Shown here one piece after another: positions 17,191-27,032 of a stretch of DNA of 64,000 nucleotides. The notes beneath the pieces are model-generated. The model searched no databases. It had not been told where the DNA came from and worked only from the letters and a program-made list of their open reading frames with translations. A program made the translations under genes and the position numbers. Position 1 is the stretch's first letter; every line of letters begins with the position of its first letter. Source of the stretch: an uncultured Pseudomonadota bacterium (GTDB lineage: Bacteria > Pseudomonadota > Alphaproteobacteria > JACZXZ01); assembly GCA_963749075.1 (NCBI GenBank), contig CAVVLJ010000016.1:1152001-1216000 (forward strand). Reading direction: 5' to 3'.

Positions 17191-18516
17191 TTGCCGCCGC
17201 TAGAGCGCATGGAGGCCGCGCGCGGCGAGGGCGGGGCGACAGTTCACGCTCTTGTGATCCATCCGGCTCCCAAGTCCCACGCGAGCAACGGCAGGACTCC
17301 CGAGGCGCGGCTCGAGGAGGCGGTGGCGCTTGCCCGCGCCATCGGCCTTGCCGTCGTTCATGCCGAGGTGGTGCGCATCGCCGAGCGCCGCCCGGCGAGC
17401 CTTTTCGGCAAGGGGACCGTAGCCCGCCTCGGCGAGCGCGTGGCCGCGGAGGAGGCCGCCGTCGTGGTGGTCAACGGCGCGCTCAGCCCGGTGCAGCAGC
17501 GCAATCTCGAGCGGGCGTGGAAGTGCAAGGTCATCGACCGCACGGCGCTCATCCTCGAGATTTTCGGCGAGCGGGCGCGCACGCGCGAGGGCCGCCTCCA
17601 GGTCGAGCTCGCCCATCTCTCCTACCAGAGGAGCCGCCTGGTGCGCAGCTGGACGCATCTCGAGCGCCAGCGCGGCGGCTTCGGCTTCCTCGGCGGGCCG
17701 GGCGAGAGCCAGATCGAGCTCGACCGCCGTCTCATCGGCGAGCGCATCATCAAGATCAAGCGCGAGCTCGAAAGCGTCGTCAGGCGGCGCGAGCTGCAGC
17801 GCGCCGCGCGCCGGCGCGTGCCCTATCCGGTGGTGGCGCTCGTCGGCTACACCAATGCCGGCAAGTCGACGCTCTTCAACCGCCTGACCAACGCCGCGGT
17901 GCTGGCGGAAGACCTCCTCTTCGCGACCCTCGATCCGACCATGCGCTCGCTCGAGCTGCCCTCGGGCCGCAGCGTCATCCTCTCCGACACGGTCGGCTTC
18001 ATCTCGGAGCTGCCGGTCGAGCTCGTCGCCGCCTTCCGCGCCACCCTCGAGGAGGTGCGCGAGGCCGATACGATCGTGCACGTGCGCGATGCGGCACACC
18101 CCGAGAGCGAGGCGCAGAAGGAGGACGTCCACACCGTGCTGAAGGCACTCGGCCTCGGCAGCGCGGTCGACGAAGGGCTCATCGAGGTGCTCAACAAGAT
18201 CGATTGCCTCTCGCGCGAGGAGCTGCAGCGCCTGCGCGAGGTTGCCCTGCGCAGCAACCGCAGCGTGATCCCGCTCTCCGCACTCAGCGGCGAGGGCTGC
18301 GACGCGCTCCTTCGCGTCCTCGACGAGCGGCTCGCAGAGGGGCGCGGCATCGTGGCCCTCGAGGTGCCGCTTGCCGACGGCGCCACGCTCGCCTGGCTCT
18401 ACCGGCGCGGCGAGGTGCTGAGCCGCACCGACGACGAGGCGCACGCCCATCTCACCGTGCGGCTCGAGCCCGCCGACCAGGCCCGGCTCGCGCACCGGGG
18501 CGTGCGCGCGATCTGA
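17191..18516 (+). CDS. hflX: GTPase HflX
   Basis: WTHLERQRGG, GYTNAGKST, LFATLDPT, DTVGFI, NKID; follows hfq. Confidence 0.97.
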   Translation: MPPLERMEAARGEGGATVHALVIHPAPKSHASNGRTPEARLEEAVALARAIGLAVVHAEVVRIAERRPASLFGKGTVARLGERVAAEEAAVVVVNGALSPVQQRNLERAWKCKVIDRTALILEIFGERARTREGRLQVELAHLSYQRSRLVRSWTHLERQRGGFGFLGGPGESQIELDRRLIGERIIKIKRELESVVRRRELQRAARRRVPYPVVALVGYTNAGKSTLFNRLTNAAVLAEDLLFATLDPTMRSLELPSGRSVILSDTVGFISELPVELVAAFRATLEEVREADTIVHVRDAAHPESEAQKEDVHTVLKALGLGSAVDEGLIEVLNKIDCLSREELQRLREVALRSNRSVIPLSALSGEGCDALLRVLDERLAEGRGIVALEVPLADGATLAWLYRRGEVLSRTDDEAHAHLTVRLEPADQARLAHRGVRAI

Positions 18517-18540
18517 GCGGCCGCCCGGCCGCCCGCCGGC

Positions 18541-19281
18541 TCAGCCGCCGTCCTCCTTCGCGCATTGCACGAGCGCCGCGATGCGGCGGAGCTCCGCGTC
18601 CGCCCCGCCCGCGGCTGCCGCGGCCGAGCGGAATGCTATGCCGTGGGCGGCGAGGAAACGCTTGATGTCGCCGGCGGGCACCGCGACGCTCTCGTCGGGC
18701 CGGGCGACGAATTGGCCGATGATCATGCCTCGGAGGATGCCCGCCTCGTCGAGGACGGGTCCGCCGCTGTTGCCCTCGCGGAGGCTCGCCTCGATCACCA
18801 GCACGCGGCGGCCCGACGGCACGGCCGCCATGCCGACCACGGTGCCCTCCGTCAGCACCGCCGCCTCGGGATTGTCGGGGACCAGGCCGTAACCGATGAC
18901 CGTCACGGAGCTGCCGGTGGGCAACGCCGGGCGGCGGGGGAGTAGGGCCGCCGCCGCGCGCGCGCCGGACGTGCTGAGAAGCGCCAGGTCGCGCGCCGCG
19001 TCGAGTGCTACGAGCTTGGCGTCCTGCGGCGGCCGCTGCGGCTGCCAGAGCGAGATGCGGCGGCACGCGGCCACCACATGCGCGCTCGTCAGGAGATAGC
19101 CGGCACTCGACACGAAGAAGGCGGTGCCGCTGCGCACGAGGGGCGCCGACGGCGTGGTCCCGGCGGCAAGCGCGCTTGCGAGGGTGCTCGACAGAAGCCA
19201 AAGAGCAAGCACGGCCCGGGCGTGCGCGGCCCGCCGGCGCCAGGCTGCCGCACGCCCCGCGGCCGCCGCGGCGCTCCTCAC
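18541..19281 (-). CDS. exported trypsin-like (S1) serine protease
   Basis: Signal-like VLALWLLSSTLASALA, SGTAFFV..YLLTSAHVV (His), RDLALL (Asp), GNSGGP (Ser); GTGA overlap with the kinase stop. Confidence 0.85.
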   Translation of the reverse strand: MRSAAAAAGRAAAWRRRAAHARAVLALWLLSSTLASALAAGTTPSAPLVRSGTAFFVSSAGYLLTSAHVVAACRRISLWQPQRPPQDAKLVALDAARDLALLSTSGARAAAALLPRRPALPTGSSVTVIGYGLVPDNPEAAVLTEGTVVGMAAVPSGRRVLVIEASLREGNSGGPVLDEAGILRGMIIGQFVARPDESVAVPAGDIKRFLAAHGIAFRSAAAAAGGADAELRRIAALVQCAKEDGG

Positions 19282-21425
19282 ATTGCCCAGATGCCGCGCC
19301 GCGCCGCCTTCGCCTGCTGCTCGGCAACGCGGTACTTCGAGGGTGCGCCGGGCCGCACGCGGGCGGCCCCATTGAGCACGGCGGCCTCGGCGAGGTCGAC
19401 TTTGCCCACGTGGCACTCGAAGGAGCGCCCCGGCCGCGCGAAGCAGCTCACGCGATTGCCCATCTGCTCGATGTAGTGCTGCATGGCGGTCGCGAGCTGT
19501 CCGGTCTCGCCGCGAATGCCGTAGAGGTTGACGACCTTTCCGGCCACCACCAGCGCCGCCGAGTTGAGCACGGCGCTGACCTCGCCCTCGATGTCCGGGG
19601 TCGCGCCCGAGACGGCAGGCGGTTGCGCGGTGTTGGGCGGCAGCGAGGCGACTTGCGGCGGATGCGTTTGCTCGCTCGACGGCAGTCCCGTCGCCGCGGG
19701 CGCTTGCGAGCCCGATGCCGCGGGCGATGGCGTGCCTGTGGCGGCGGGCTGGGAGCCGGCGGCCGGAGCGGCCGGTTGCGGCGCCAAGGACGTGTTCGTC
19801 GCGATCACCAACGAGTTGTCCGGCTTCGCAGGCGCCTGGATGGCGGCGGGCGGCTGCGCCGGCGGATTCGTGCTCGCGACGGGCGTCGTGGGCGCGGCTG
19901 GCGTCGCCGTCGGCGCAGCTGCGGATGCCGGCGACGGCGCCGCGGCCGGCGGCGATGCCGAGGCTACGGGAGTTGACGGGGGGGCGGCGGGCGGTGCTGT
20001 CGTGGCCGGCTGCGTCGGCGCCGTTGCCGGCGGCGAGGCCGAAGCCGCGGGGGCAGCTGGCGGCGCGGTTGCACTCGGCGATGATGTGGCGGCCGCAGGC
20101 GCCGGTGCCGCGGGCGGCGAAGCGGGCGGCGCCACGGCGCTTGCCGGCGGCGAGGCCGGGGCGCTCGGCAGCGGGGAGGCGGGCGCCTCCTTGGCGGCCG
20201 GCGCCGGCTCCGCCGCCGCGCTCCGAAGCGGATGAGCCGGCGCCGGCGGCTCTTGCGTTTCCTTGGCCGCGGAGGCGGTGGCCGCCGGCGGCGCCTGCTC
20301 GGCGACGACGGGCTTGGCCGTCGGTCCCGATGCCAGGACCACGTAGCCGAGCCCGGCGAGCAGCACCGCCGCGACGCCGCCGAGGACCATGGCCGGCATT
20401 CGCATGGCCGGCGGCAGCGCGCTCAGGAGGGGGAGGGTCGCTTTCTTCGCCCCTTGTCCCGGGCGGTCGGCGACCGCGCTCTGGGCGGCGGTGGCCTGCG
20501 CGGGCGCCTCGAGCGACAGCGAGCCGCCGGTGCTCATCAGCCGGGTGGCCGGCGGCGGCAAGGCACCCCAGCGCGCCACCACCGTCTCCTTGACGATGTC
20601 GGCGGCCTCGCCCTGGATCGCCGCGGCGCCGAGCGCGCGGCCGAACTCGTCGACGGAGGCGTAGCGCTCCTCGGGTTTCTTGGCCAGCGCCCGCATCATC
20701 ACGCTCTCGACGTTGGGATCGAGGTCGGGCACCTGGCCGGCGAGGGGCGGCGGTCGCTGCTCGACCTGGGCGCGGATGAGCTCGTATTCGCTGGTGGCAT
20801 TGAAGGCGCAATTGCCGGAGAGGAGCTCGTAGAGCACCATCGAGAGGCTGTAGAGGTCGCTGCGCGCGTCGCCCTCGGCACCCTGGAGCTGCTCCGGCGA
20901 CATGTAGGCGAGCGTGCCGATGAGGTCGCCCTGCCGCGTCATGCGCTGCGAGCCCTGGATGCGGGCGATGCCGAAATCCATGATCTTGAGCAGCCCGCTG
21001 TCGGTGACCATGAGATTGGCGGGCTTGATGTCGCGGTGGATGACGCCCATGCGGTGAGCGTAGGAGAGGCCGGCCACCGTCTGCGCCATGATGGCGAGGC
21101 ACTCGCGCACGCCGAGGCGGCCGGCCTTGCCGAGGATCGCCTCGAGCGTGTTGCCGCGCACCAGCTCCATCACCATGAAGAGCTCGTCGCCTTCCTTGTG
21201 CAGCGAAAAGAGCGTGGTGATGTTGGGGTGGTTGAGGCGGGCGAGGTTGGTGGCCTCGCCGCGGAAGCGCTCGAGGAAGCCGCGGTCGCGGCTGAACTCC
21301 GGGCGCAGCGCCTTGATCGCCACGGGCCGGCCGAGCAGCTGATCCACCCCGGCATAGACCTCGCCGATGCCGCCCTTGCCGAGCTGCTCGTGGATCTCGT
21401 AGGGGCCGATGACGCGAAAGCTCAT
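19278..21425 (-). CDS. membrane Hanks-type Ser/Thr kinase with Pro/Ala linker and C-terminal SNase-like domain
   Basis: LGKGGIGEVY, VAIK, HRDIKPAN, DFG, YMSPE; TM; long P/A stretch; C-terminus DLAEAAVLNGAA...YRVAEQQAKAARRGIW. Confidence 0.92.
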   Translation of the reverse strand: MSFRVIGPYEIHEQLGKGGIGEVYAGVDQLLGRPVAIKALRPEFSRDRGFLERFRGEATNLARLNHPNITTLFSLHKEGDELFMVMELVRGNTLEAILGKAGRLGVRECLAIMAQTVAGLSYAHRMGVIHRDIKPANLMVTDSGLLKIMDFGIARIQGSQRMTRQGDLIGTLAYMSPEQLQGAEGDARSDLYSLSMVLYELLSGNCAFNATSEYELIRAQVEQRPPPLAGQVPDLDPNVESVMMRALAKKPEERYASVDEFGRALGAAAIQGEAADIVKETVVARWGALPPPATRLMSTGGSLSLEAPAQATAAQSAVADRPGQGAKKATLPLLSALPPAMRMPAMVLGGVAAVLLAGLGYVVLASGPTAKPVVAEQAPPAATASAAKETQEPPAPAHPLRSAAAEPAPAAKEAPASPLPSAPASPPASAVAPPASPPAAPAPAAATSSPSATAPPAAPAASASPPATAPTQPATTAPPAAPPSTPVASASPPAAAPSPASAAAPTATPAAPTTPVASTNPPAQPPAAIQAPAKPDNSLVIATNTSLAPQPAAPAAGSQPAATGTPSPAASGSQAPAATGLPSSEQTHPPQVASLPPNTAQPPAVSGATPDIEGEVSAVLNSAALVVAGKVVNLYGIRGETGQLATAMQHYIEQMGNRVSCFARPGRSFECHVGKVDLAEAAVLNGAARVRPGAPSKYRVAEQQAKAARRGIWAM

Positions 21426-22330
21426 GAGGGACCTCCGGCCGGAGGTGCAGCGCTCAGGGAGCGCGTGATGCCGGCCGGCGACGCCGGCGGCGGCAAGTCG
21501 CTCAAGGCGAAGACGCCGACCGAGACGTTGTCGTGGCCGCCGGCCGCGAGTGCCGCGGCGATCAGCGCTTCGCAGGCGCCTGCGGGCGGCAGGTGCGCTA
21601 TGGTCTCGCCGATCGCGGCGCTCTCCACCAAGTCGCTGAGGCCGTCCGAGCATAGCACGAAGATGTCGCCCGGAGAGAGCGGCATGCCGTCGCGCCAGAT
21701 CGCCGGATCGGCATGCGGCGCCGTGCCGAGCGCCTTGAGGATGACGTTGCGGTCGGCGCGGCTGCGGGCCTCCTCGGCGCTGATGGCTCCCATGCGCACG
21801 AGCTCGCCGACGAGGGAATCGTCGTGGCTGATCTGGCGGAGCTCGCTGCCGCGCAGCAGATAGGCGCGGCTGTCCCCGATGTGTCCGAGGAATGCCCGAT
21901 CGCCGAGCAGGGCGAGCGCCGTGCAGGTCGTCCCCATGCCGGCGCACACCGGATCGCTGCGGCTCTTCTCGAAGATCGCGCGGTTCGCGGCGGTGAAGCC
22001 CGCTGCGAGCGCCTTCTGCGGACTGCCGGCGTCGGCGAAATAGACGCGCATCAGCGTCTCGGCGGCAAGCAGGCTCGCCACCTCGCCCGCGGCGTGTCCG
22101 CCCATGCCGTCGGCGACCACCGCGAGGAGCCCGCGGCCGGTGGCGATGTCGCCCTCGCGCGGGATGACGTAGGCCACGCTGTCCTCGTTGTTGCTGCGCA
22201 CGCGGCCGGGATCGCTGCGCATGGCACCGCTGACGAAGAGCCCAGTGCCCGCAGGCCTTTCCGCCGTCACCATCGCCATGGGTCGTGCGCTCGCTCCGCC
22301 ATCCGCCGCAGCCTCGCTCGCCCGGCTCAC
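21422..22330 (-). CDS. PP2C-family (Stp1/PrpC-like) Ser/Thr phosphatase
   Basis: GRVRSNNEDS, VADGMGGH, MGTT, HIGDSRAY, CSDGL, GGHDNVS. Confidence 0.95.
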   Translation of the reverse strand: MSRASEAAADGGASARPMAMVTAERPAGTGLFVSGAMRSDPGRVRSNNEDSVAYVIPREGDIATGRGLLAVVADGMGGHAAGEVASLLAAETLMRVYFADAGSPQKALAAGFTAANRAIFEKSRSDPVCAGMGTTCTALALLGDRAFLGHIGDSRAYLLRGSELRQISHDDSLVGELVRMGAISAEEARSRADRNVILKALGTAPHADPAIWRDGMPLSPGDIFVLCSDGLSDLVESAAIGETIAHLPPAGACEALIAAALAAGGHDNVSVGVFALSDLPPPASPAGITRSLSAAPPAGGPS

Positions 22331-24072
22331 TGCACCTTTTGCAATTGCATGATGTCGCGGCCGTACTTGATCGGCACGGCGAAGGTCACGCGCTCGCTGC
22401 CGCGCGTGCGCGAATAGGTGAAGAGTCCGATGACCTTGCCGGCCGAATCGAAGACGGGTCCGCCGCTGTTGCCGGCGCCGGTTGCCAGCACGGTGAGCTG
22501 GTACACGTCGCCCGTCTGGCTGAGCGTCGTGACGTTGCCTTGCCGCTGCACCCCGGAGCCGAATTTGGCGATGATGCCGTCCGTCACGGTGGGCTCGGGC
22601 AGGAGCTCCTGGCGCTCCTGCGTCTGGGTGTTCTCCCGCGATTGGACCACCGCGAACTTCTTCTCGGAGATGCCTGGATAGCCGAGCACGGTGATCGGCT
22701 CGCCCAGCGTCACCTTGTCGTTGGGGTCGATCAGCTCCGTCGATGTCAGTTTCTGCGGCACGTCGATGCGGATCAAGGCCACGTCCGCGTCGGTCGAGGC
22801 GCGGATGAGCCGTGCCGCAAAGCTCAGGCGGTTGTCGGGGAAGCGGACCTCGAGCGTGTCGTTGCGGCCCTCGAAGATTTCGTCTCCCGTGAGGATCGGT
22901 CGCGGCTCGGCGCCGTCGAACATCGTGCCGCCCTCATCCGGGATCCAGTCGACGAGGCTCGCAATGGCGCTCGGGTCGATGGCCCCTCTGCCGGAGAGCG
23001 TCAGCTTGCCCTGGGGATCGCGCGTCAGCAGGTAGAGCATGCCGGCCTTGCCTTCCTCGTAGGGCGCGTCATAGCTCACCATCCAGCCCGCGGCGACATG
23101 CTTGTTGGTCAGGATGAAGCCGTCGGGGCCGACCACGAAGCCGCTGCCCGAGCCCTCGCCGCCGATGAGGTAGTTGGCATGGTTGTTGTCGTCGGTGGTG
23201 AGCCAGCGCACGACTTTGCCATTGGGCAATTTCACATAGCCGAGGTAGCCCTTGCCGCCTTCCGTCACGACCTTGTGGTAGACCGGCTTCCCGGTATCCT
23301 TGTCGAAGAGCCGCCAGCCCAGGCGGACATAGACCGTGGCGTCGCCGTACTTGGCGGCAATCTCCTTGGGGCTCATGCCCAGGCGCTTGTTGAGCTCCGC
23401 CGCTTGCCCCTTGGCCTCCTCGGCCTGCTGGCGCTTGAGCTCCGCCTCCGACTGGACGCTGTGATAGTAGAGGGCGCCGCCGACGATGCCGACGAGGACG
23501 AGGATGCCGGCAAGGGTGTAAATCCATATGCGGCTGGTCGCCTGGCGCTCGGCCGAGAGCATGCGCTGCACGGTCTCGCGTCCCACGGCCTGGCGCGGCG
23601 GCGAGGCGGGCGGCTGGGCGGCGGCCGGCTCGCCCGCCGAGATCACCCGCGTGGCCTCGGGTGCCGCCGAGACGACGCGCGTCGCCTCCGCGGCGCCCGT
23701 GCGGATGACGCGCGTGCGCGCCATCAGATGGGAGGGCCGCGGCTCCACGTCGAACGTCATCTTGGGACCGCCGGCGCCGAGCTCGATGGTATCGCCGGGC
23801 AACAGCTCGCTTTCGCCGCTGATCTTGCTGCCGTTGACCAGCGTGCCGTTGCTGCTCTGCAAATCGGCGATCTTGAAGCTGAGCTCCGGCGTCTTGACGA
23901 TGCGGATGGCGGCATGGCGGCGGCTCACCAGATCGTCCCGCTGCGAGTCGAAGGTGACCGCCACGTTGGGATCTCGGCCTAACGTGAGCTCCTCGAAGCT
24001 GTCGAGCGGGAACTGCTCGATCTGGTTGGCCTTGGAACCGCTGAGATGATGGATGACGATGCGACCGGGCAT
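22327..24072 (-). CDS. FHA domain - TM - trypsin-like serine protease
   Basis: FHA motifs LGRD, VSRRH, SSNGT; TM IWIYTLAGILVLVGIVGGALYY; GSGFVV..ILTNKHV, DVALI, GNSGGP. Confidence 0.92.
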   Translation of the reverse strand: MPGRIVIHHLSGSKANQIEQFPLDSFEELTLGRDPNVAVTFDSQRDDLVSRRHAAIRIVKTPELSFKIADLQSSNGTLVNGSKISGESELLPGDTIELGAGGPKMTFDVEPRPSHLMARTRVIRTGAAEATRVVSAAPEATRVISAGEPAAAQPPASPPRQAVGRETVQRMLSAERQATSRIWIYTLAGILVLVGIVGGALYYHSVQSEAELKRQQAEEAKGQAAELNKRLGMSPKEIAAKYGDATVYVRLGWRLFDKDTGKPVYHKVVTEGGKGYLGYVKLPNGKVVRWLTTDDNNHANYLIGGEGSGSGFVVGPDGFILTNKHVAAGWMVSYDAPYEEGKAGMLYLLTRDPQGKLTLSGRGAIDPSAIASLVDWIPDEGGTMFDGAEPRPILTGDEIFEGRNDTLEVRFPDNRLSFAARLIRASTDADVALIRIDVPQKLTSTELIDPNDKVTLGEPITVLGYPGISEKKFAVVQSRENTQTQERQELLPEPTVTDGIIAKFGSGVQRQGNVTTLSQTGDVYQLTVLATGAGNSGGPVFDSAGKVIGLFTYSRTRGSERVTFAVPIKYGRDIMQLQKVQ

Positions 24073-24327
24073 TAAGCCCCCCTCCCGCGATTAGACGCCG
24101 ACGCGCAAAGAACGTGCGGCGTAATATGCCATAGAATGAGGCGCGTGTGCACCGCTTGCTGGCAGGTCCACGGCCCGGGCGCGGCCCGTGCGATTACTAG
24201 CCGCCCCGGGTGCCGGCGCCCTGTGACGCCCGTCACAGGGGGCGGCCGATGGCCTGGGCAGCCGGCTTGACTTGAGCGGGCGATCGCGGGGCTAATCGCC
24301 GGCGACGAACGCGGGGTTGGGTGCCGC

Positions 24328-24939
24328 ATGGAGATTTCCCTCGATCACGCCGCCATCCTCGAGCTCGCTGCCGTCGTCGTGATCGACGTCGTCCTCTCGG
24401 GCGACAACGCCGTGATCCTCGGCCTGGCAACCATGGGCTTGCCCGAAGCCAGGCGCGGACGCGCGCTTACGGCCGGCGTGGCGCTCGCAGCACTCCTCCG
24501 CGTGGCATTGGCGCTCGTCGCCGTGCCGCTTCTCGCCGTCATCGGCCTCACGCTCGCCGGCGGCATCCTTCTGCTTGGCGTGGCCTGGAAGATCTGGCGC
24601 GAGGTGCGCGAGGCATCCCGCCGGGCGGGCGGCGGGCAGCACCAGGCGGCGCGCGGTGCCGCCAAGAGCGACACCGCCGCTATCCTGCAGATAGCACTCG
24701 CCGACCTCGCCATGTCGCTCGACAACGTGCTCGCCGTGGCCGGGGCCGCGCACCGCCACCCCTGGGTCATGGTCAGCGGCCTGGCACTCTCGGTGGCGCT
24801 CATGGCCTTCGCGGCACGGCTCGTCGCGCGCTTCCTCGAGCGCTATCCCTGGCTCGTCTATCTCGGCCTCGCCGTCATCACGGCGGTGGCCCTCAAGATG
24901 ATCTGGGAGGGCAGTGCCGACGTGCTGCGCGCGATTTAG
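24328..24939 (+). CDS. TerC/YjbE family membrane protein
   Basis: IDVVLSGDNAVI, ADLAMSLDNVLAVAGAA. Confidence 0.92.
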   Translation: MEISLDHAAILELAAVVVIDVVLSGDNAVILGLATMGLPEARRGRALTAGVALAALLRVALALVAVPLLAVIGLTLAGGILLLGVAWKIWREVREASRRAGGGQHQAARGAAKSDTAAILQIALADLAMSLDNVLAVAGAAHRHPWVMVSGLALSVALMAFAARLVARFLERYPWLVYLGLAVITAVALKMIWEGSADVLRAI

Positions 24940-26068: not shown

Positions 26069-26935
26069 TTATTGACCTGTCTTGCTGCGCTCCTCGAGCT
26101 TCGCCAGGTCCCACAGCGCGTCCATCTCGGCGAGCGAGGCGTCGGCGGTCGCCTTGCCGCGCTCGGCCAAGAGGGATTCCACCCGGCGGAAGCGGCGCTC
26201 GAACTTGGCGTTGGCCCGGCGCAGCGCCGCCTCGGGGTCGAGGGCGAGCCGGCGCGCCAGATTGACGAGGCTGAAGAGCACGTCGCCGAGCTCGTCCTCG
26301 AGCCGCGCGGGCGGGGCCGCGGCGGCAAGCTCGGCGTTGAGCTCGCGCATCTCTTCCGCGACCTTGTCGAGGATGGGTGCGAGCTCGCCCCAATCGAAGC
26401 CGACGCGCGCCGCGCGGCGCTGCAGCTTGAGCGCGCGCGTAAGCGCGGGGAGGGCGAGGGCGACGCCGTCGAGGGCGCTCGCCGCCCGCTCGCCGGCCGC
26501 TCTCGCCTTGGCCGCCCGCTCGGCCGCCTTGTGGCCCTCCCAGGCCAGGCGCTGGCTCTCGCCGTCCTTGATGTCCTCCTCGCCGAAGACGTGAGGATGT
26601 CGCCGTATCATCTTGTCGGCGATGGCTCCGGCAATGGCGTCGAAATCGAAGGTGCCGGCCTCCTCGGCAATGCGTGCGTGGAAGACGACCTGGAGGAGGA
26701 GGTCGCCGAGCTCGTCGCGCAAGCCCTCGAGGTCCTGGCGCTCGATGGCGTCCGCGACCTCGTAGGCCTCCTCGATCGTGTAGGGGGCGATGGTCGCGAA
26801 GCTCTGCGCCGCGTCCCACGGACAGCCGCGCTCCGGATGGCGGAGACGCGCCATGATCTCGATGAGGCGGTCGATGTTGCGCCGGTCGATGTTGCGCCGG
26901 TCGATGTTGCGCCGGTCGATGTTGCTCTGGGACAT
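26069..26935 (-). CDS. mazG: nucleoside triphosphate pyrophosphohydrolase MazG
   Basis: LR.PERGCPWD, IEEAYEV, ELGDLLLQVVFHA, RRHPHVF, KFERRF. Confidence 0.96.
   Translation of the reverse strand: MSQSNIDRRNIDRRNIDRRNIDRLIEIMARLRHPERGCPWDAAQSFATIAPYTIEEAYEVADAIERQDLEGLRDELGDLLLQVVFHARIAEEAGTFDFDAIAGAIADKMIRRHPHVFGEEDIKDGESQRLAWEGHKAAERAAKARAAGERAASALDGVALALPALTRALKLQRRAARVGFDWGELAPILDKVAEEMRELNAELAAAAPPARLEDELGDVLFSLVNLARRLALDPEAALRRANAKFERRFRRVESLLAERGKATADASLAEMDALWDLAKLEERSKTGQ
26868..26925. repeat. 15-bp in-frame tandem repeat (about 3.9 copies) at the mazG 5' end
   Basis: CGGTCGATGTTGCGC x3 plus a 13-bp partial copy, encoding NIDRR repeats. Confidence 0.95.
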
Positions 26936-27032
26936 GGTCAAGGGCTGCTGCCGGAGGGGGAGGGGCATGGTTGCGCCGCGCGACACTCATAGCGCAGGAT
27001 CGGCCGCCGGGAAAGCAAGGAGGGTGGCCAAG

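What the first reader, a model, noticed from the sequence alone, without database searches (positions are those of the whole stretch)
18541..24072. Four-gene phospho-signalling plus protease operon: FHA-TM-trypsin, PP2C, Ser/Thr kinase with SNase-like ectodomain, secreted trypsin
Seen: four minus-strand genes joined by 4-bp stop/start overlaps, inserted convergent to hflX in a housekeeping region. They provide a complete write/erase/read phospho-Thr set (Hanks kinase, PP2C, FHA) and two S1 proteases with intact His/Asp/Ser triads. No T6SS or cell-division genes, the usual partners of kinase-PP2C-FHA triads, are nearby. Inference: a self-contained trans-envelope circuit in which an extracytoplasmic ligand activates the kinase, the FHA reads pThr, and the membrane-tethered periplasmic protease is switched on (envelope stress, defence or cell-cell conflict). 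I do not recognise this architecture as a described system.
Basis: partly seen in the sequence, partly recalled or inferred. Interest (0 to 1): 0.85.

Follow-up and report, generated by a model that had tools for sequence, protein, structure and literature searches.

The report
Phospho-switched membrane protease signalling module
A membrane-anchored HtrA-like protease with a phosphothreonine-reading domain on its cytoplasmic end sits next to its own kinase and phosphatase, a three-gene set that recurs in many soil bacteria and seems undescribed, while the fourth gene is only a local neighbour.

Summary
Four minus-strand genes (24072..18541) with 4-bp overlaps encode an FHA-TM-protease (581 aa), a PP2C phosphatase (302), a Hanks kinase with a TM and a C-terminal ectodomain (715), and a secreted S1 protease (246). 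They lie convergent to hflX.

Fold prediction confirms an SNase fold for the kinase ectodomain, probably non-catalytic, and a PDZ-less DegS/HtrA-like fold for the periplasmic part of gene 1.

The conserved unit has three genes, not four. PP2C and/or a kinase follow the FHA-protease in 60 of 69 assessable metagenome loci and in 7 of 9 genome loci. The second protease accompanies it in none of these. In two congeners that protease sits beside hflX without the triad.

The cytoplasmic linker of gene 1 carries an invariant Thr (T120, motif RTRxΦ) and repeated TRxΦ motifs that fit FHA ligands.

Best reading (0.5): the kinase writes, PP2C erases and the FHA reads pThr marks that gate a periplasmic HtrA-like protease. 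The cue and the substrates are unknown.

Five literature searches found no description. I rate it a new variant of the kinase-PP2C-FHA triad, interest 0.62.

The parts
22327..24072 (-). g1: FHA-TM-HtrA-like protease, 581 aa
   Evidence: ORF and start codon. GGGAGG Shine-Dalgarno. Pfam FHA plus Trypsin_2. 505 homologues with E<=0.001 among the 8000 candidates scored; the best 120 listed have E<=6e-152, nearly all full length.
23776..23985 (-). FHA domain of g1 (residues 30-99)
   Evidence: Pfam PF00498, 52.9 bits. G32, R33, R51 and N75 are invariant; S50 and H53 are conserved in >=90% of 61 homologues.
23638..23754 (-). Cytoplasmic linker of g1 (residues 107-145): FDxxPRP, then RT120RVI, AT131RVV, AT141RVI. 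These are candidate phospho-acceptor and FHA-ligand motifs.
   Evidence: T120 is invariant; R119, R121, T131 and R132 are conserved in >=90% of 61 sequences. Of 117 homologues, 113 have at least one T[RK]x[IVLM] motif and 83 have at least two. The motif was also seen in 17 of 18 type A and 7 of 9 type B loci examined.
23464..23529 (-). Single TM helix of g1 (residues ~182-203), preceded by an Arg-rich segment (N-in topology inferred)
   Evidence: Read from the sequence. No topology predictor was run.
22330..23400 (-). Periplasmic part of g1 (residues 225-581): PDZ-less DegS/HtrA-like protease with about 150 extra residues; triad H325/D430/S536
   Evidence: AF2 pLDDT 92.2. Foldseek top hits are DegS-deltaPDZ, HtrA1 and DegP/DegQ: E 6e-12, TMt 0.75, TMq 0.45. 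The triad is invariant.
21422..22330 (-). g2: PP2C Ser/Thr phosphatase, 302 aa (alternative start ATG 22279)
   Evidence: Pfam PP2C_2. NCBIfam Stp1/IreP model, 218.3 bits against a cut-off of 230. Start codons.
20661..21401 (-). g3 kinase domain (residues 9-255) of the 715-aa Hanks kinase (gene 19278..21425)
   Evidence: Pfam Pkinase, 175.7 bits. Catalytic K38, HRD130-132, DFG150-152 and T171 are invariant in 43 sequences.
20331..20390 (-). g3 TM helix (residues ~346-365)
   Evidence: Read from the sequence.
19596..20330 (-). g3 Pro/Ala-rich extracytoplasmic linker (~245 aa); local GC 0.75-0.78
   Evidence: Translation and composition profile.
19281..19595 (-). g3 C-terminal SNase-fold domain (105 aa) with two invariant Cys; probably non-catalytic
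   Evidence: 610 representatives with E<=1e-3. Alignment A1. AF2 pLDDT 97.9. Foldseek top hit is staphylococcal nuclease.
18541..19281 (-). g4: secreted S1 protease, 246 aa. Co-transcription is likely here, but it is not part of the conserved module.
   Evidence: Pfam Trypsin_2, 82 bits. MarP-like, 74.5 bits, below the cut-off of 250. Orthologues sit beside hflX without the triad in G003 and G005. Not found beside the module elsewhere.

Best explanation
The conserved unit is a three-gene trans-envelope signalling module: an inner-membrane receptor Ser/Thr kinase, a cytoplasmic PP2C phosphatase, and an inner-membrane HtrA/DegS-like protease. The protease has no periplasmic PDZ domain. In its place, at the cytoplasmic end, it has an FHA domain followed by a linker with conserved Thr-Arg-x-hydrophobic motifs.

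Proposed mechanism:
1. The variable ectodomain of the kinase senses an envelope or extracellular cue. Here that ectodomain is a disulfide-bonded, probably non-catalytic SNase-fold domain on a ~245-residue Pro/Ala linker. (Inferred.)
2. The kinase autophosphorylates and phosphorylates T120, T131 and T141 of the protease linker. (Inferred.)
3. The FHA domain binds these pThr motifs in cis or in trans, or binds a similar motif in the kinase juxtamembrane region. (Inferred from motif fit.)
4. This changes the oligomeric or allosteric state of the periplasmic protease and so gates proteolysis of envelope substrates. (Inferred.)
5. PP2C resets the system. (Inferred from family function.)

The secreted protease g4 is a resident neighbour that has become co-transcribed in this genome. 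It may be a local accessory but is not part of the module.

What is shown, computationally: the domain composition, the folds, the conservation of catalytic and pThr-binding residues, the motif conservation and the gene linkage. Every biochemical step is inferred.
For: Composition and catalytic competence.

Folds. The periplasmic part of g1 is DegS/HtrA-like, and Pfam found no PDZ. The kinase ectodomain has an SNase fold.

Gene linkage:
- PP2C then kinase directly follow g1 in 7 of 9 genome-contig loci, including one Saprospiraceae MAG, and in G079.
- Of 80 metagenome loci, 69 are assessable, and 60 of those have PP2C and/or a kinase next on the same strand. The orders are K-P-K 21, P-K 17, K 9, P 6, K-P 3, P-K-K 2 and K-P-K-K 2.

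Linker motifs. T120 is invariant in 61 of 61 sequences although most of the linker between the motifs and the TM helix is poorly conserved. R119, R121, T131 and R132 are conserved in >=90%. Of 117 homologues, 113 have at least one and 83 at least two T[RK]x[IVLM] motifs. A hydrophobic residue at pT+3 is the FHA preference; this is recalled knowledge, not from a call. A similar TRxΦ motif lies in the kinase juxtamembrane region in 4 of 10 kinases, with a THLI variant in a fifth.

FHA pThr-binding residues are invariant or nearly so.

The kinase ectodomains vary (SNase-like, Sel1, other) while the protease stays constant. This fits a design with variable sensors and a common output.
Against: - There are no experimental data of any kind.
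- The direction of signal flow is not established. The protease could act on the kinase, or the FHA could only tether the protease to the kinase.
- The substrates are unknown, and the effect of pThr binding on an HtrA fold across a membrane has no worked precedent that I know of.
- TxxΦ motifs are short. Their conservation could instead reflect a kinase-docking or membrane-proximal function.
- One genome locus (L015) has the FHA-protease with no kinase or PP2C within the 17.8 kb held. In L019 the partners lie 3.8 kb upstream, and in L044 they lie on the opposite strand.
- Type B loci carry a second kinase between g1 and PP2C. Its role is not explained.
Confidence: 0.5

Rival explanations
1. 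The protease serves the kinase rather than the reverse. The FHA docks the protease onto the autophosphorylated kinase so that its periplasmic domain trims the kinase's own ectodomain or linker, or a co-sensor protein. This would give feedback shut-off or irreversible activation (regulated proteolysis of the receptor).
For: The FHA-protease and the kinase are both single-pass inner-membrane proteins with the same topology. Here the kinase has a ~245-residue unstructured Pro/Ala linker, a plausible protease target. A TRxΦ motif is present in the kinase juxtamembrane region in 4 of 10 kinases, with a THLI variant in a fifth. Small envelope proteins often follow the kinase gene.
Against: The kinase ectodomains and linkers vary widely while the protease is conserved. 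The best-conserved Thr motifs are in the protease's own linker, not in the kinase.
Confidence: 0.2
2. The module is a conflict or defence system (anti-phage, or a response to attack by other bacteria). The kinase detects an invader-derived cue and the protease is the effector.
For: - Distribution is sporadic. A g1 orthologue at E<=1e-30 was found in 3 of 401 genomes of the class.
- There is a presence/absence polymorphism at one site within the genus.
- TIR-domain genes lie near the module in a few loci: L045, and TIR-WD40 in L062 and L020.
- The SNase-like sensor domain also occurs fused to TIR in 2 of 118 proteins.
- The kinase scores 313 bits on PADLOC PD-T4-6 models.
Against: - The PD-T4-6 and mad6 models match the generic Hanks kinase domain, and the PP2C has no PADLOC hit.
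- In the flanks clustered, no family recurred in more than 13 loci besides g1, the kinases and PP2C. The flanking families that I scanned with Pfam or read from their ORFs included no integrase or other mobile-element gene.
- A periplasmic HtrA-like protease is not a usual abortive-infection effector; this is my own knowledge.
- The TIR neighbours are a small minority.
Confidence: 0.15
3. All four genes, including the secreted protease g4, form one functional system in this genus: a two-protease cascade under kinase control.
For: With the starts chosen, g3 and g4 overlap by 4 bp in the window. In G001 they are 52 nt apart and in G002 they are adjacent.
Against: A g4-like gene lies beside the module in 0 of 9 genome loci and 0 of 80 metagenome loci. 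g4 orthologues stand alone next to hflX in G003 and G005, where the triad is missing. The 4-bp overlap is not conserved in G001.
Confidence: 0.15

Closest known systems
T6SS threonine phosphorylation pathway (PpkA kinase, PppA PP2C, Fha1)
   Same: A membrane Hanks kinase with a periplasmic domain, a PP2C eraser and an FHA reader encoded together. A periplasmic cue is routed through cytoplasmic pThr to an envelope-spanning output. The pathway is named in the abstract of PMC5995506, seen in the search listing; further details are recalled.
   Different: Here the FHA is fused through a TM helix to a periplasmic HtrA-like protease and is not a soluble scaffold. The module is not in a T6SS cluster: the genome's VipB genes are on contig C20. 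The families that recurred in the clustered flanks were a second kinase, a 283-aa secreted protein and an ECF sigma factor; none that I scanned or read was a T6SS gene.
DegS (membrane-anchored HtrA protease of the sigma-E envelope stress pathway)
   Same: An N-terminal TM anchor and a periplasmic HtrA-fold protease. DegS-deltaPDZ is the top structural match (E 5.7e-12, TMt 0.75).
   Different: There is no PDZ domain. There are about 150 extra residues in the protease part, since TMq is only 0.45. There is a 180-residue cytoplasmic FHA-plus-linker region, and the gene is linked to a kinase and PP2C rather than to rseA/rpoE. That DegS is activated by OMP peptides through its PDZ is recalled knowledge.
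Actinobacterial FhaA/FhaB-PstP-PknA/PknB cluster
   Same: Hanks kinases, a PP2C and FHA proteins in one operon. FhaB is a membrane-anchored FHA protein, and the NCBIfam FhaB_Rv0019c model matches g1 residues 20-100 at E 5.7e-10.
   Different: g1 scores 39.5 bits against a cut-off of 125. The ORFs read around the operon include no rodA/pbpA neighbours. The kinase has no PASTA repeats: only the kinase domain matches the PknB_PASTA_kin model, 312.8 bits against a cut-off of 450. The output is a protease.
KKP kinase-kinase-phosphatase module of Pf prophages (PMC11341870; passages read)
   Same: A PP2C plus two Hanks kinases with an FHA domain, independent of T6SS. The type B relatives found here also carry two kinases.
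   Different: In KKP the FHA is fused to a kinase and the other kinase carries a cold-shock domain. The passages read mention no membrane segment and no protease. KKP sits in prophages and works as a phospho-based toxin-antitoxin.
NucA-trypsin conflict system (Kaur et al. 2020, PMC7159879; passages read)
   Same: Multiple trypsin-like peptidases, some fused to TM segments, together with a nuclease-type domain. Found mostly in Alphaproteobacteria.
   Different: NucA is an HNH/Endonuclease-NS domain, not an SNase/OB fold. The passages describing that system mention no kinase, PP2C or FHA. The paper's supplementary neighbourhood tables could not be opened.
Chk2/Rad53-type activation: FHA binding to a phosphorylated Thr cluster of a neighbouring molecule (recalled; no call)
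   Same: A Thr-rich motif cluster lies next to an FHA domain in the same polypeptide, which suggests phospho-dependent head-to-tail oligomerisation.
   Different: This is a eukaryotic kinase, the motifs are [ST]Q, and the output is kinase activation, not a protease across a membrane. It is an analogy only.

Membership tests
T6SS threonine phosphorylation pathway (PpkA/PppA/Fha) | Hanks kinase, PP2C and FHA protein encoded together | tested here: met
   Pfam and NCBIfam hits.
T6SS threonine phosphorylation pathway (PpkA/PppA/Fha) | Encoded within, and acting on, a T6SS gene cluster | tested here: not met
   The VipB (PF05943) matches in G000 are only on contig C20, while the window is on C16. 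The families that recurred in the clustered flanks of about 86 loci were g1, kinases, PP2C, a 283-aa secreted protein and an ECF sigma factor; none that I scanned or read was a T6SS gene.
HtrA/DegS/DegP family | Chymotrypsin-fold protease domain with a His-Asp-Ser triad | tested here: met
   Foldseek top hits are DegS, HtrA1 and DegP. H325, D430 and S536 are invariant.
HtrA/DegS/DegP family | One or two C-terminal PDZ domains | tested here: not met
   No PDZ family appears at E<=0.01, and the protein ends about 10 residues after the protease match. NCBIfam degP_htrA_DO scores 69.9 bits against a cut-off of 416.
HtrA/DegS/DegP family | Trimer as the basic unit | not tested
   Three copies of the 357-residue periplasmic part would exceed the 1000-residue limit of complex prediction, so no job was sent.
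Staphylococcal nuclease (SNase, PF00565) | SNase OB-fold | tested here: met
   AF2 pLDDT 97.9. Foldseek prob 1.0, TMq 0.70-0.75 to SNase and SND1.
Staphylococcal nuclease (SNase, PF00565) | Sequence membership: Pfam gathering score | tested here: not met
   14.8 bits against a cut-off of 21, and only profile positions 63-106 are matched. A profile search against PDB sequences gives SNase at E 0.34.
Staphylococcal nuclease (SNase, PF00565) | Conserved Ca2+-binding and catalytic Asp/Glu/Arg residues | tested here: inconclusive
   In the 40-sequence alignment the invariant or near-invariant columns are C51, C61, G76, A95, G4, L24, G26, D67, N75, A84, G101 and W103. I saw no conserved acidic/Arg cluster. 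No residue-level structural superposition on SNase was available.
Stp1/IreP PP2C phosphatases (NF033484) | Equivalog score cut-off | tested here: not met
   218.3 bits against a cut-off of 230, with full-length coverage 2-230 of 232. It is a PP2C by Pfam.
PD-T4-6 single-gene defence kinase (PADLOC) | Match to a PD-T4-6 model | tested here: inconclusive
   313 bits. However, many PD-T4-6 models and mad6 all match the generic kinase domain, so the hit does not discriminate. No defence phenotype can be tested with these tools.
MarP family serine protease (NF033740), considered for g4 | Equivalog score cut-off and N-terminal multi-TM domain | tested here: not met
   74.5 bits against a cut-off of 250, and only the protease part is matched. 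g4 has a single N-terminal hydrophobic segment.

The most novel reading that the evidence does not exclude
An undescribed class of inside-out trans-envelope signalling. Cytoplasmic phosphothreonine marks are written by a receptor kinase on a conserved TRxΦ cluster and read by the adjacent FHA domain. They drive oligomerisation of a single-pass HtrA-like protease and thereby switch on proteolysis in the periplasm. The module is widespread in soil Alphaproteobacteria and beyond, with interchangeable sensor ectodomains. One of these is a new disulfide-bonded, non-catalytic SNase-fold domain that is also wired to TIR and cell-wall-binding proteins.
Probability: 0.35. Interest if true: 0.78.

Novelty: new variant of a known kind. 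Interest (0 to 1): 0.62.

Why it matters
Outside Actinobacteria, Firmicutes and T6SS regulation, few bacterial Hanks kinases have a known output. Here the output is written into the gene. The pThr reader is fused to a periplasmic HtrA-like protease, and the linkage is conserved in most loci examined: 60 of 69 assessable metagenome loci and 7 of 9 genome loci.

If the mechanism holds, it would be a phosphorylation-gated extracytoplasmic protease. The regulatory input would arrive from the cytoplasm rather than through a PDZ domain, which is a new regulatory logic for the HtrA family.

The predictions are direct and can be tested with ordinary biochemistry: the phospho-sites T120, T131 and T141, the FHA residues R33, S50 and N75, and the catalytic S536. 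Named cultured carriers exist (Methylosinus spp., Xanthobacter versatilis; names as given by sources).

The SNase-fold ectodomain family has 610 representatives and no Pfam model that reaches threshold. It is a separate small find.

Tried and rejected
Leads that gave nothing or were set aside:

- Complex prediction of the kinase cytoplasmic part (alignment A5, 340 aa) with g1 residues 1-180 (alignment A3) returned 'no answer' (score 0.00 against a mark of 0.32). This is not evidence either way. Phospho-dependent binding is not modelled.
- The promoter/terminator scan of 18300-24500 found 0 promoter-like sites and 3 terminator-like sites, where 2.0 +/- 1.4 are expected by chance. It is uninformative.
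- Expression. One soil metatranscriptome run (X4) holds short contigs that match parts of all four genes: 187 nt in g2 with 0 differences, and 240, 196 and 223 nt in g4, g3 and g1 with 4-10 differences. Contigs in an RNA library do not prove transcription, and DNA carry-over is possible. The DNA runs X1 and X2 may be the source sample. I draw no conclusion from stretches without cover.
- Defence annotation. The PADLOC hits are generic kinase and protease matches, so I rejected them as a basis for naming.
- A link between the FHA-cyclase paralogue (G000 contig C17) and the module. No FHA-cyclase fusion was found in G001-G005, only cyclase-domain matches, so co-occurrence could not be used.
- The glycine-zipper gene upstream of g1 in G002. 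Its G000 orthologue (62% identity) lies on another contig, so it is not a fixed part of the module in this genus.
- A profile search of the SNase-like alignment against PDB sequences gave only E 0.34. The fold search was needed.
- Supplementary files of papers were not opened. The neighbourhood tables of Kaur et al. 2020 (PMC7159879) and Kaur et al. 2021 (PMC8195603) might list FHA-trypsin contexts that I could not see.
- Literature searches cover only the held library, so the 'not described' statement is limited to it.


Full report
1. WHAT IS THERE

Four ORFs lie head to tail on the minus strand:
- g1, 24072..22327 (ATG, 581 aa)
- g2, 22330..21422 (GTG, 302 aa)
- g3, 21425..19278 (ATG, 715 aa)
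- g4, 19281..18541 (GTG, 246 aa)

With these starts every junction is a 4-bp GTGA or ATGA overlap. g1 has a GGGAGG Shine-Dalgarno sequence 7 nt before its ATG. The g2 and g4 starts are choices: an in-frame ATG at 22279 for g2 and a GTG at 19212 for g4 are also possible.

The g4 stop lies 24 nt from the stop of the convergent hflX gene. One flank holds an NtrX-type activator, a class IV aminotransferase, Hfq and HflX. The other holds TerC, an inositol monophosphatase, MazG and an enoyl-CoA hydratase. GC is about 0.70 in the flanks and 0.75-0.78 over the Pro/Ala-rich part of g3.

2. THE PROTEINS

g1. It has an FHA domain (residues 30-99, 52.9 bits), one hydrophobic helix (about 182-203) preceded by an Arg-rich segment, and a Trypsin_2 match (residues 394-550, 73.6 bits). 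Pfam finds no PDZ. An AF2 model of residues 225-581, built on 61 sequences, has pLDDT 92.2. Its best Foldseek matches are DegS-deltaPDZ, HtrA1, DegP and DegQ (E about 6e-12, TMt 0.75). TMq is only 0.45, so about 150 residues lie outside the HtrA core. In 61 full-length homologues H325, D430 and S536 are invariant. So are FHA residues G32, R33, R51 and N75; S50 and H53 are conserved in at least 90%.

g2. It is a PP2C (Pfam PP2C_2). It scores 218.3 bits over the full length of the Stp1/IreP model, just under the cut-off of 230.

g3. It is a Hanks kinase (Pkinase, 175.7 bits). The catalytic Lys, HRD, DFG and the activation-loop Thr171 are invariant in 43 module kinases. After the kinase domain come a TM helix (about 346-365), a Pro/Ala-rich stretch of about 245 residues, and a 105-residue C-terminal domain.

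The g3 C-terminal domain:
- Pfam SNase is sub-threshold (E 0.041, 14.8 bits against a cut-off of 21).
- A search of 1.84 billion representatives gave 610 hits at E<=1e-3 and 139 at E<=1e-10.
- A 40-sequence alignment shows two invariant Cys and the motifs NGAAR and RGIW. I saw no conserved acidic/Arg cluster.
- The AF2 model has pLDDT 97.9.
- Foldseek ranks staphylococcal nuclease and SND1 first (E 4e-6, prob 1.0, TMq 0.70-0.75).

The domain is probably a binding module, not a nuclease.

Among 118 proteins that carry this domain, Pfam finds SH3_3 in 9, Pkinase in 6, PG_binding_1 in 3 and TIR_2 in 2. Most have no other Pfam family.

g4. It is a small S1 protease (Trypsin_2, 82 bits) with an N-terminal hydrophobic segment ending in ALA-AG. 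Its best NCBIfam hit is MarP-like, 74.5 bits against a cut-off of 250.

3. IS THE GENE SET CONSERVED?

g1 belongs to a large family. There are 505 proteins with E<=0.001 among the 8000 candidates scored. The best 120 listed all have E<=6e-152, are 45-70% identical and nearly all are full length. Their sources name them as coming from Acetobacteraceae, Xanthobacteraceae, Stellaceae, Reyranella, Aliidongia, Methylosinus and Xanthobacter.

Species genomes (genome contigs), 9 loci in all:
- PP2C then kinase follow directly on the same strand in 7 (L013, L014, L016, L017, L018, L020, L021). L016 is a Saprospiraceae MAG.
- L019 has PP2C and kinase 3.8 kb upstream.
- L015 has neither within the 17.8 kb held.
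- G079 also has the colinear triad.

Metagenome contigs, 80 loci in all:
- 11 cannot be judged: 9 have less than 400 nt downstream, and in 2 the C-terminus of g1 is not reached.
- Of the other 69, 60 have PP2C and/or a kinase next on the same strand: K-P-K 21, P-K 17, K only 9, P only 6, K-P 3, P-K-K 2, K-P-K-K 2. All 'K only' and 'P only' cases have less than 1.9 kb of downstream sequence.
- Of the 9 without a partner, L044 has both genes on the opposite strand.
- L045, L086, L093 and L094 hold only 0.8-1.5 kb downstream.
- L104 and L106-L108 are 28-32% matches to the protease part only.

So there are two forms:
- Type A, as in the window: g1 - PP2C - kinase.
- Type B, with g1 31-39% identical: g1 - kinase - PP2C - kinase.

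The module is rare among species representatives. A g1 orthologue at E<=1e-30 was found in 3 of 401 genomes of the class, counting the window's own genome.

4. THE FOURTH GENE

A g4-like gene was found beside the module in 0 of 9 genome loci and 0 of 80 metagenome loci.

Within the genus:
- G001 has hflX, then the g4 orthologue, the kinase and PP2C on the opposite strand, up to a contig end.
- G002 has the same set split over two contigs.
- G003 and G005 have hflX followed by the g4 orthologue (56-57% identical), then directly groES-groEL, with no triad between. The g1 search gave only weak matches (E 5e-6 and 8e-6) to the last ~55 residues of its protease domain anywhere in those two genomes.

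In G002 the triad, together with a 265-aa glycine-zipper / 17-kDa-antigen-like gene, lies between groES and g4. In G001 the kinase and g4 genes are 52 nt apart, not overlapping.

So g4 is a resident gene of this chromosomal site, and the triad is present or absent just upstream of it. Elsewhere the gene after the kinase varies: glycine-zipper lipoproteins (L017, L021, L032, L083), an OMP beta-barrel (L016), or unknown secreted proteins (L013, L014; a 283-aa family in 13 loci).

5. A NEW FEATURE: CONSERVED THR MOTIFS

Right after the FHA domain comes a conserved FDxxPRP. It is followed by R-T120-R-V-I, A-T131-R-V-V and A-T141-R-V-I.
- T120 is invariant in 61 of 61 homologues. R119, R121, T131 and R132 are conserved in at least 90%. 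Most of the linker between these motifs and the TM helix is poorly conserved.
- Of 117 homologues with the PRP anchor, 113 have at least one T[RK]x[IVLM] motif and 83 have at least two.
- The motif recurs in 17 of 18 type A and 7 of 9 type B loci examined, as ATRL.. and PTRE[VI] in type B.
- A hydrophobic residue three positions after pThr is the classic FHA preference. This is recalled knowledge, not from a call.
- A similar TRxΦ motif sits in the kinase juxtamembrane region in 4 of 10 kinases, with a THLI variant in a fifth.

6. HOW IT MOST LIKELY WORKS

I commit, at 0.5, to a phosphothreonine-gated membrane protease. The receptor kinase senses a cue through its exchangeable ectodomain: SNase-fold here, Sel1 repeats in L020, others elsewhere. 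It phosphorylates itself and the TRxΦ cluster of g1. The FHA domain binds these marks in cis or trans, or binds the kinase. This changes the assembly or allosteric state of the periplasmic HtrA-like domain. PP2C resets it.

The logic resembles the T6SS PpkA/PppA/Fha pathway and, for the protease, DegS. The difference is that regulatory input would come from the cytoplasm rather than through a PDZ domain. All biochemical steps are inferred. The cue and the substrates are unknown.

Rivals:
- The protease acts on the kinase or a co-sensor (0.2).
- It is a conflict or defence module (0.15). This is suggested by the sporadic distribution, by TIR neighbours in a few loci, and by TIR fusions of the sensor domain.
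- It is a true four-gene system in this genus (0.15).

7. COMPARISON WITH KNOWN SYSTEMS AND NOVELTY

- It is not a T6SS pathway. The VipB genes are on contig C20, and the families that recurred in the clustered flanks were a second kinase, a 283-aa secreted protein and an ECF sigma factor; none that I scanned or read was a T6SS gene.
- It is not a canonical HtrA/DegS, because there is no PDZ.
- It is not the actinobacterial Fha-PstP-Pkn cluster. There are no PASTA repeats, and the ORFs read around the operon include no rodA/pbpA neighbours.
- It is not KKP. In the passages of PMC11341870 that I read, the FHA is on a kinase and the module is prophage-borne.
- It is not the NucA-trypsin system. 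In the passages of PMC7159879 that I read, the nuclease is of the HNH type and no kinase, PP2C or FHA is described in that system.

Five full-text searches with combinations of FHA, trypsin-like, HtrA, serine protease, PP2C, Hanks and related terms returned no paper describing an FHA-protease with a kinase and PP2C. The library is partial and supplements were closed.

I rate it a new variant of a known kind: the kinase-PP2C-FHA triad with a new, fused output.

8. VERDICT

Interest is 0.62.

Noticed in passing
G000 contig C17:797-1927 (locus L028, minus strand): A 376-aa FHA plus class III nucleotide cyclase fusion (Pfam FHA 59 bits, Guanylate_cyc 42 bits). Its FHA is 48% identical to the g1 FHA over 110 residues, so it may be a second reader of the same kinase. 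No such fusion was found in congeners G001-G005; only the cyclase domains matched.
   Followed up: partly
window 24219-24240: A perfect 10-bp inverted repeat (CCCTGTGACG, 2-nt spacer, CGTCACAGGG). It lies in the 255-nt divergent intergenic region between g1 and the TerC gene and may be an operator or a hairpin.
   Followed up: no
window 19281-19595 and proteins P0122-P0271: The SNase-fold, two-Cys domain forms a large family (610 representatives at E<=1e-3) with no Pfam model that reaches threshold. It is often C-terminal and sometimes duplicated. Among the proteins scanned it is combined with SH3_3, PG_binding_1, TIR_2, VWA and DUF4145 domains. Three members (P0215, P0220, P0223) carry an N-terminal stretch that looked to me like a PBP fragment, but no tool confirmed this.
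   Followed up: partly
metagenome loci such as L076:7820-12140, L060, L083: Type B modules carry a second, ~400-435-aa kinase between the FHA-protease and PP2C (order K-P-K in 21 loci). In 13 loci they also have a 283-aa secreted protein with no Pfam match after the last kinase. An ECF sigma factor (PF07638) lies nearby in 5 loci (in L095 beside a further kinase match).
   Followed up: partly
L045:691-1683 (-), L062:11557-13257 (+), L020:13430-15148 (+): TIR-domain proteins lie within a few kb of the module in a few loci: TIR_2 alone in L045, and TIR-like N-terminus plus WD40 in L062 and L020.
   Followed up: no
L027:1158-1952 (G002) and G000 contig C17:1036952-1037680: In G002 a 265-aa glycine-zipper / 17-kDa-antigen-like secreted protein is encoded directly upstream of the FHA-protease, between it and groES. 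Its 62%-identical orthologue in the window's genome lies on another contig.
   Followed up: partly
window about 26860-26930 (minus strand, start of the MazG ORF 26986..26069): With the GTG start at 26986, the N-terminus of the MazG ORF holds four tandem pentapeptide repeats (NIDRR x3, then NIDRL), which is a 15-nt tandem repeat in the DNA.
   Followed up: no
window 18820-23708 (run X4): Short contigs of one soil metatranscriptome library match parts of all four genes at 95-100% identity. This is a weak hint that this operon, or that of a close strain, is transcribed in soil.
   Followed up: partly
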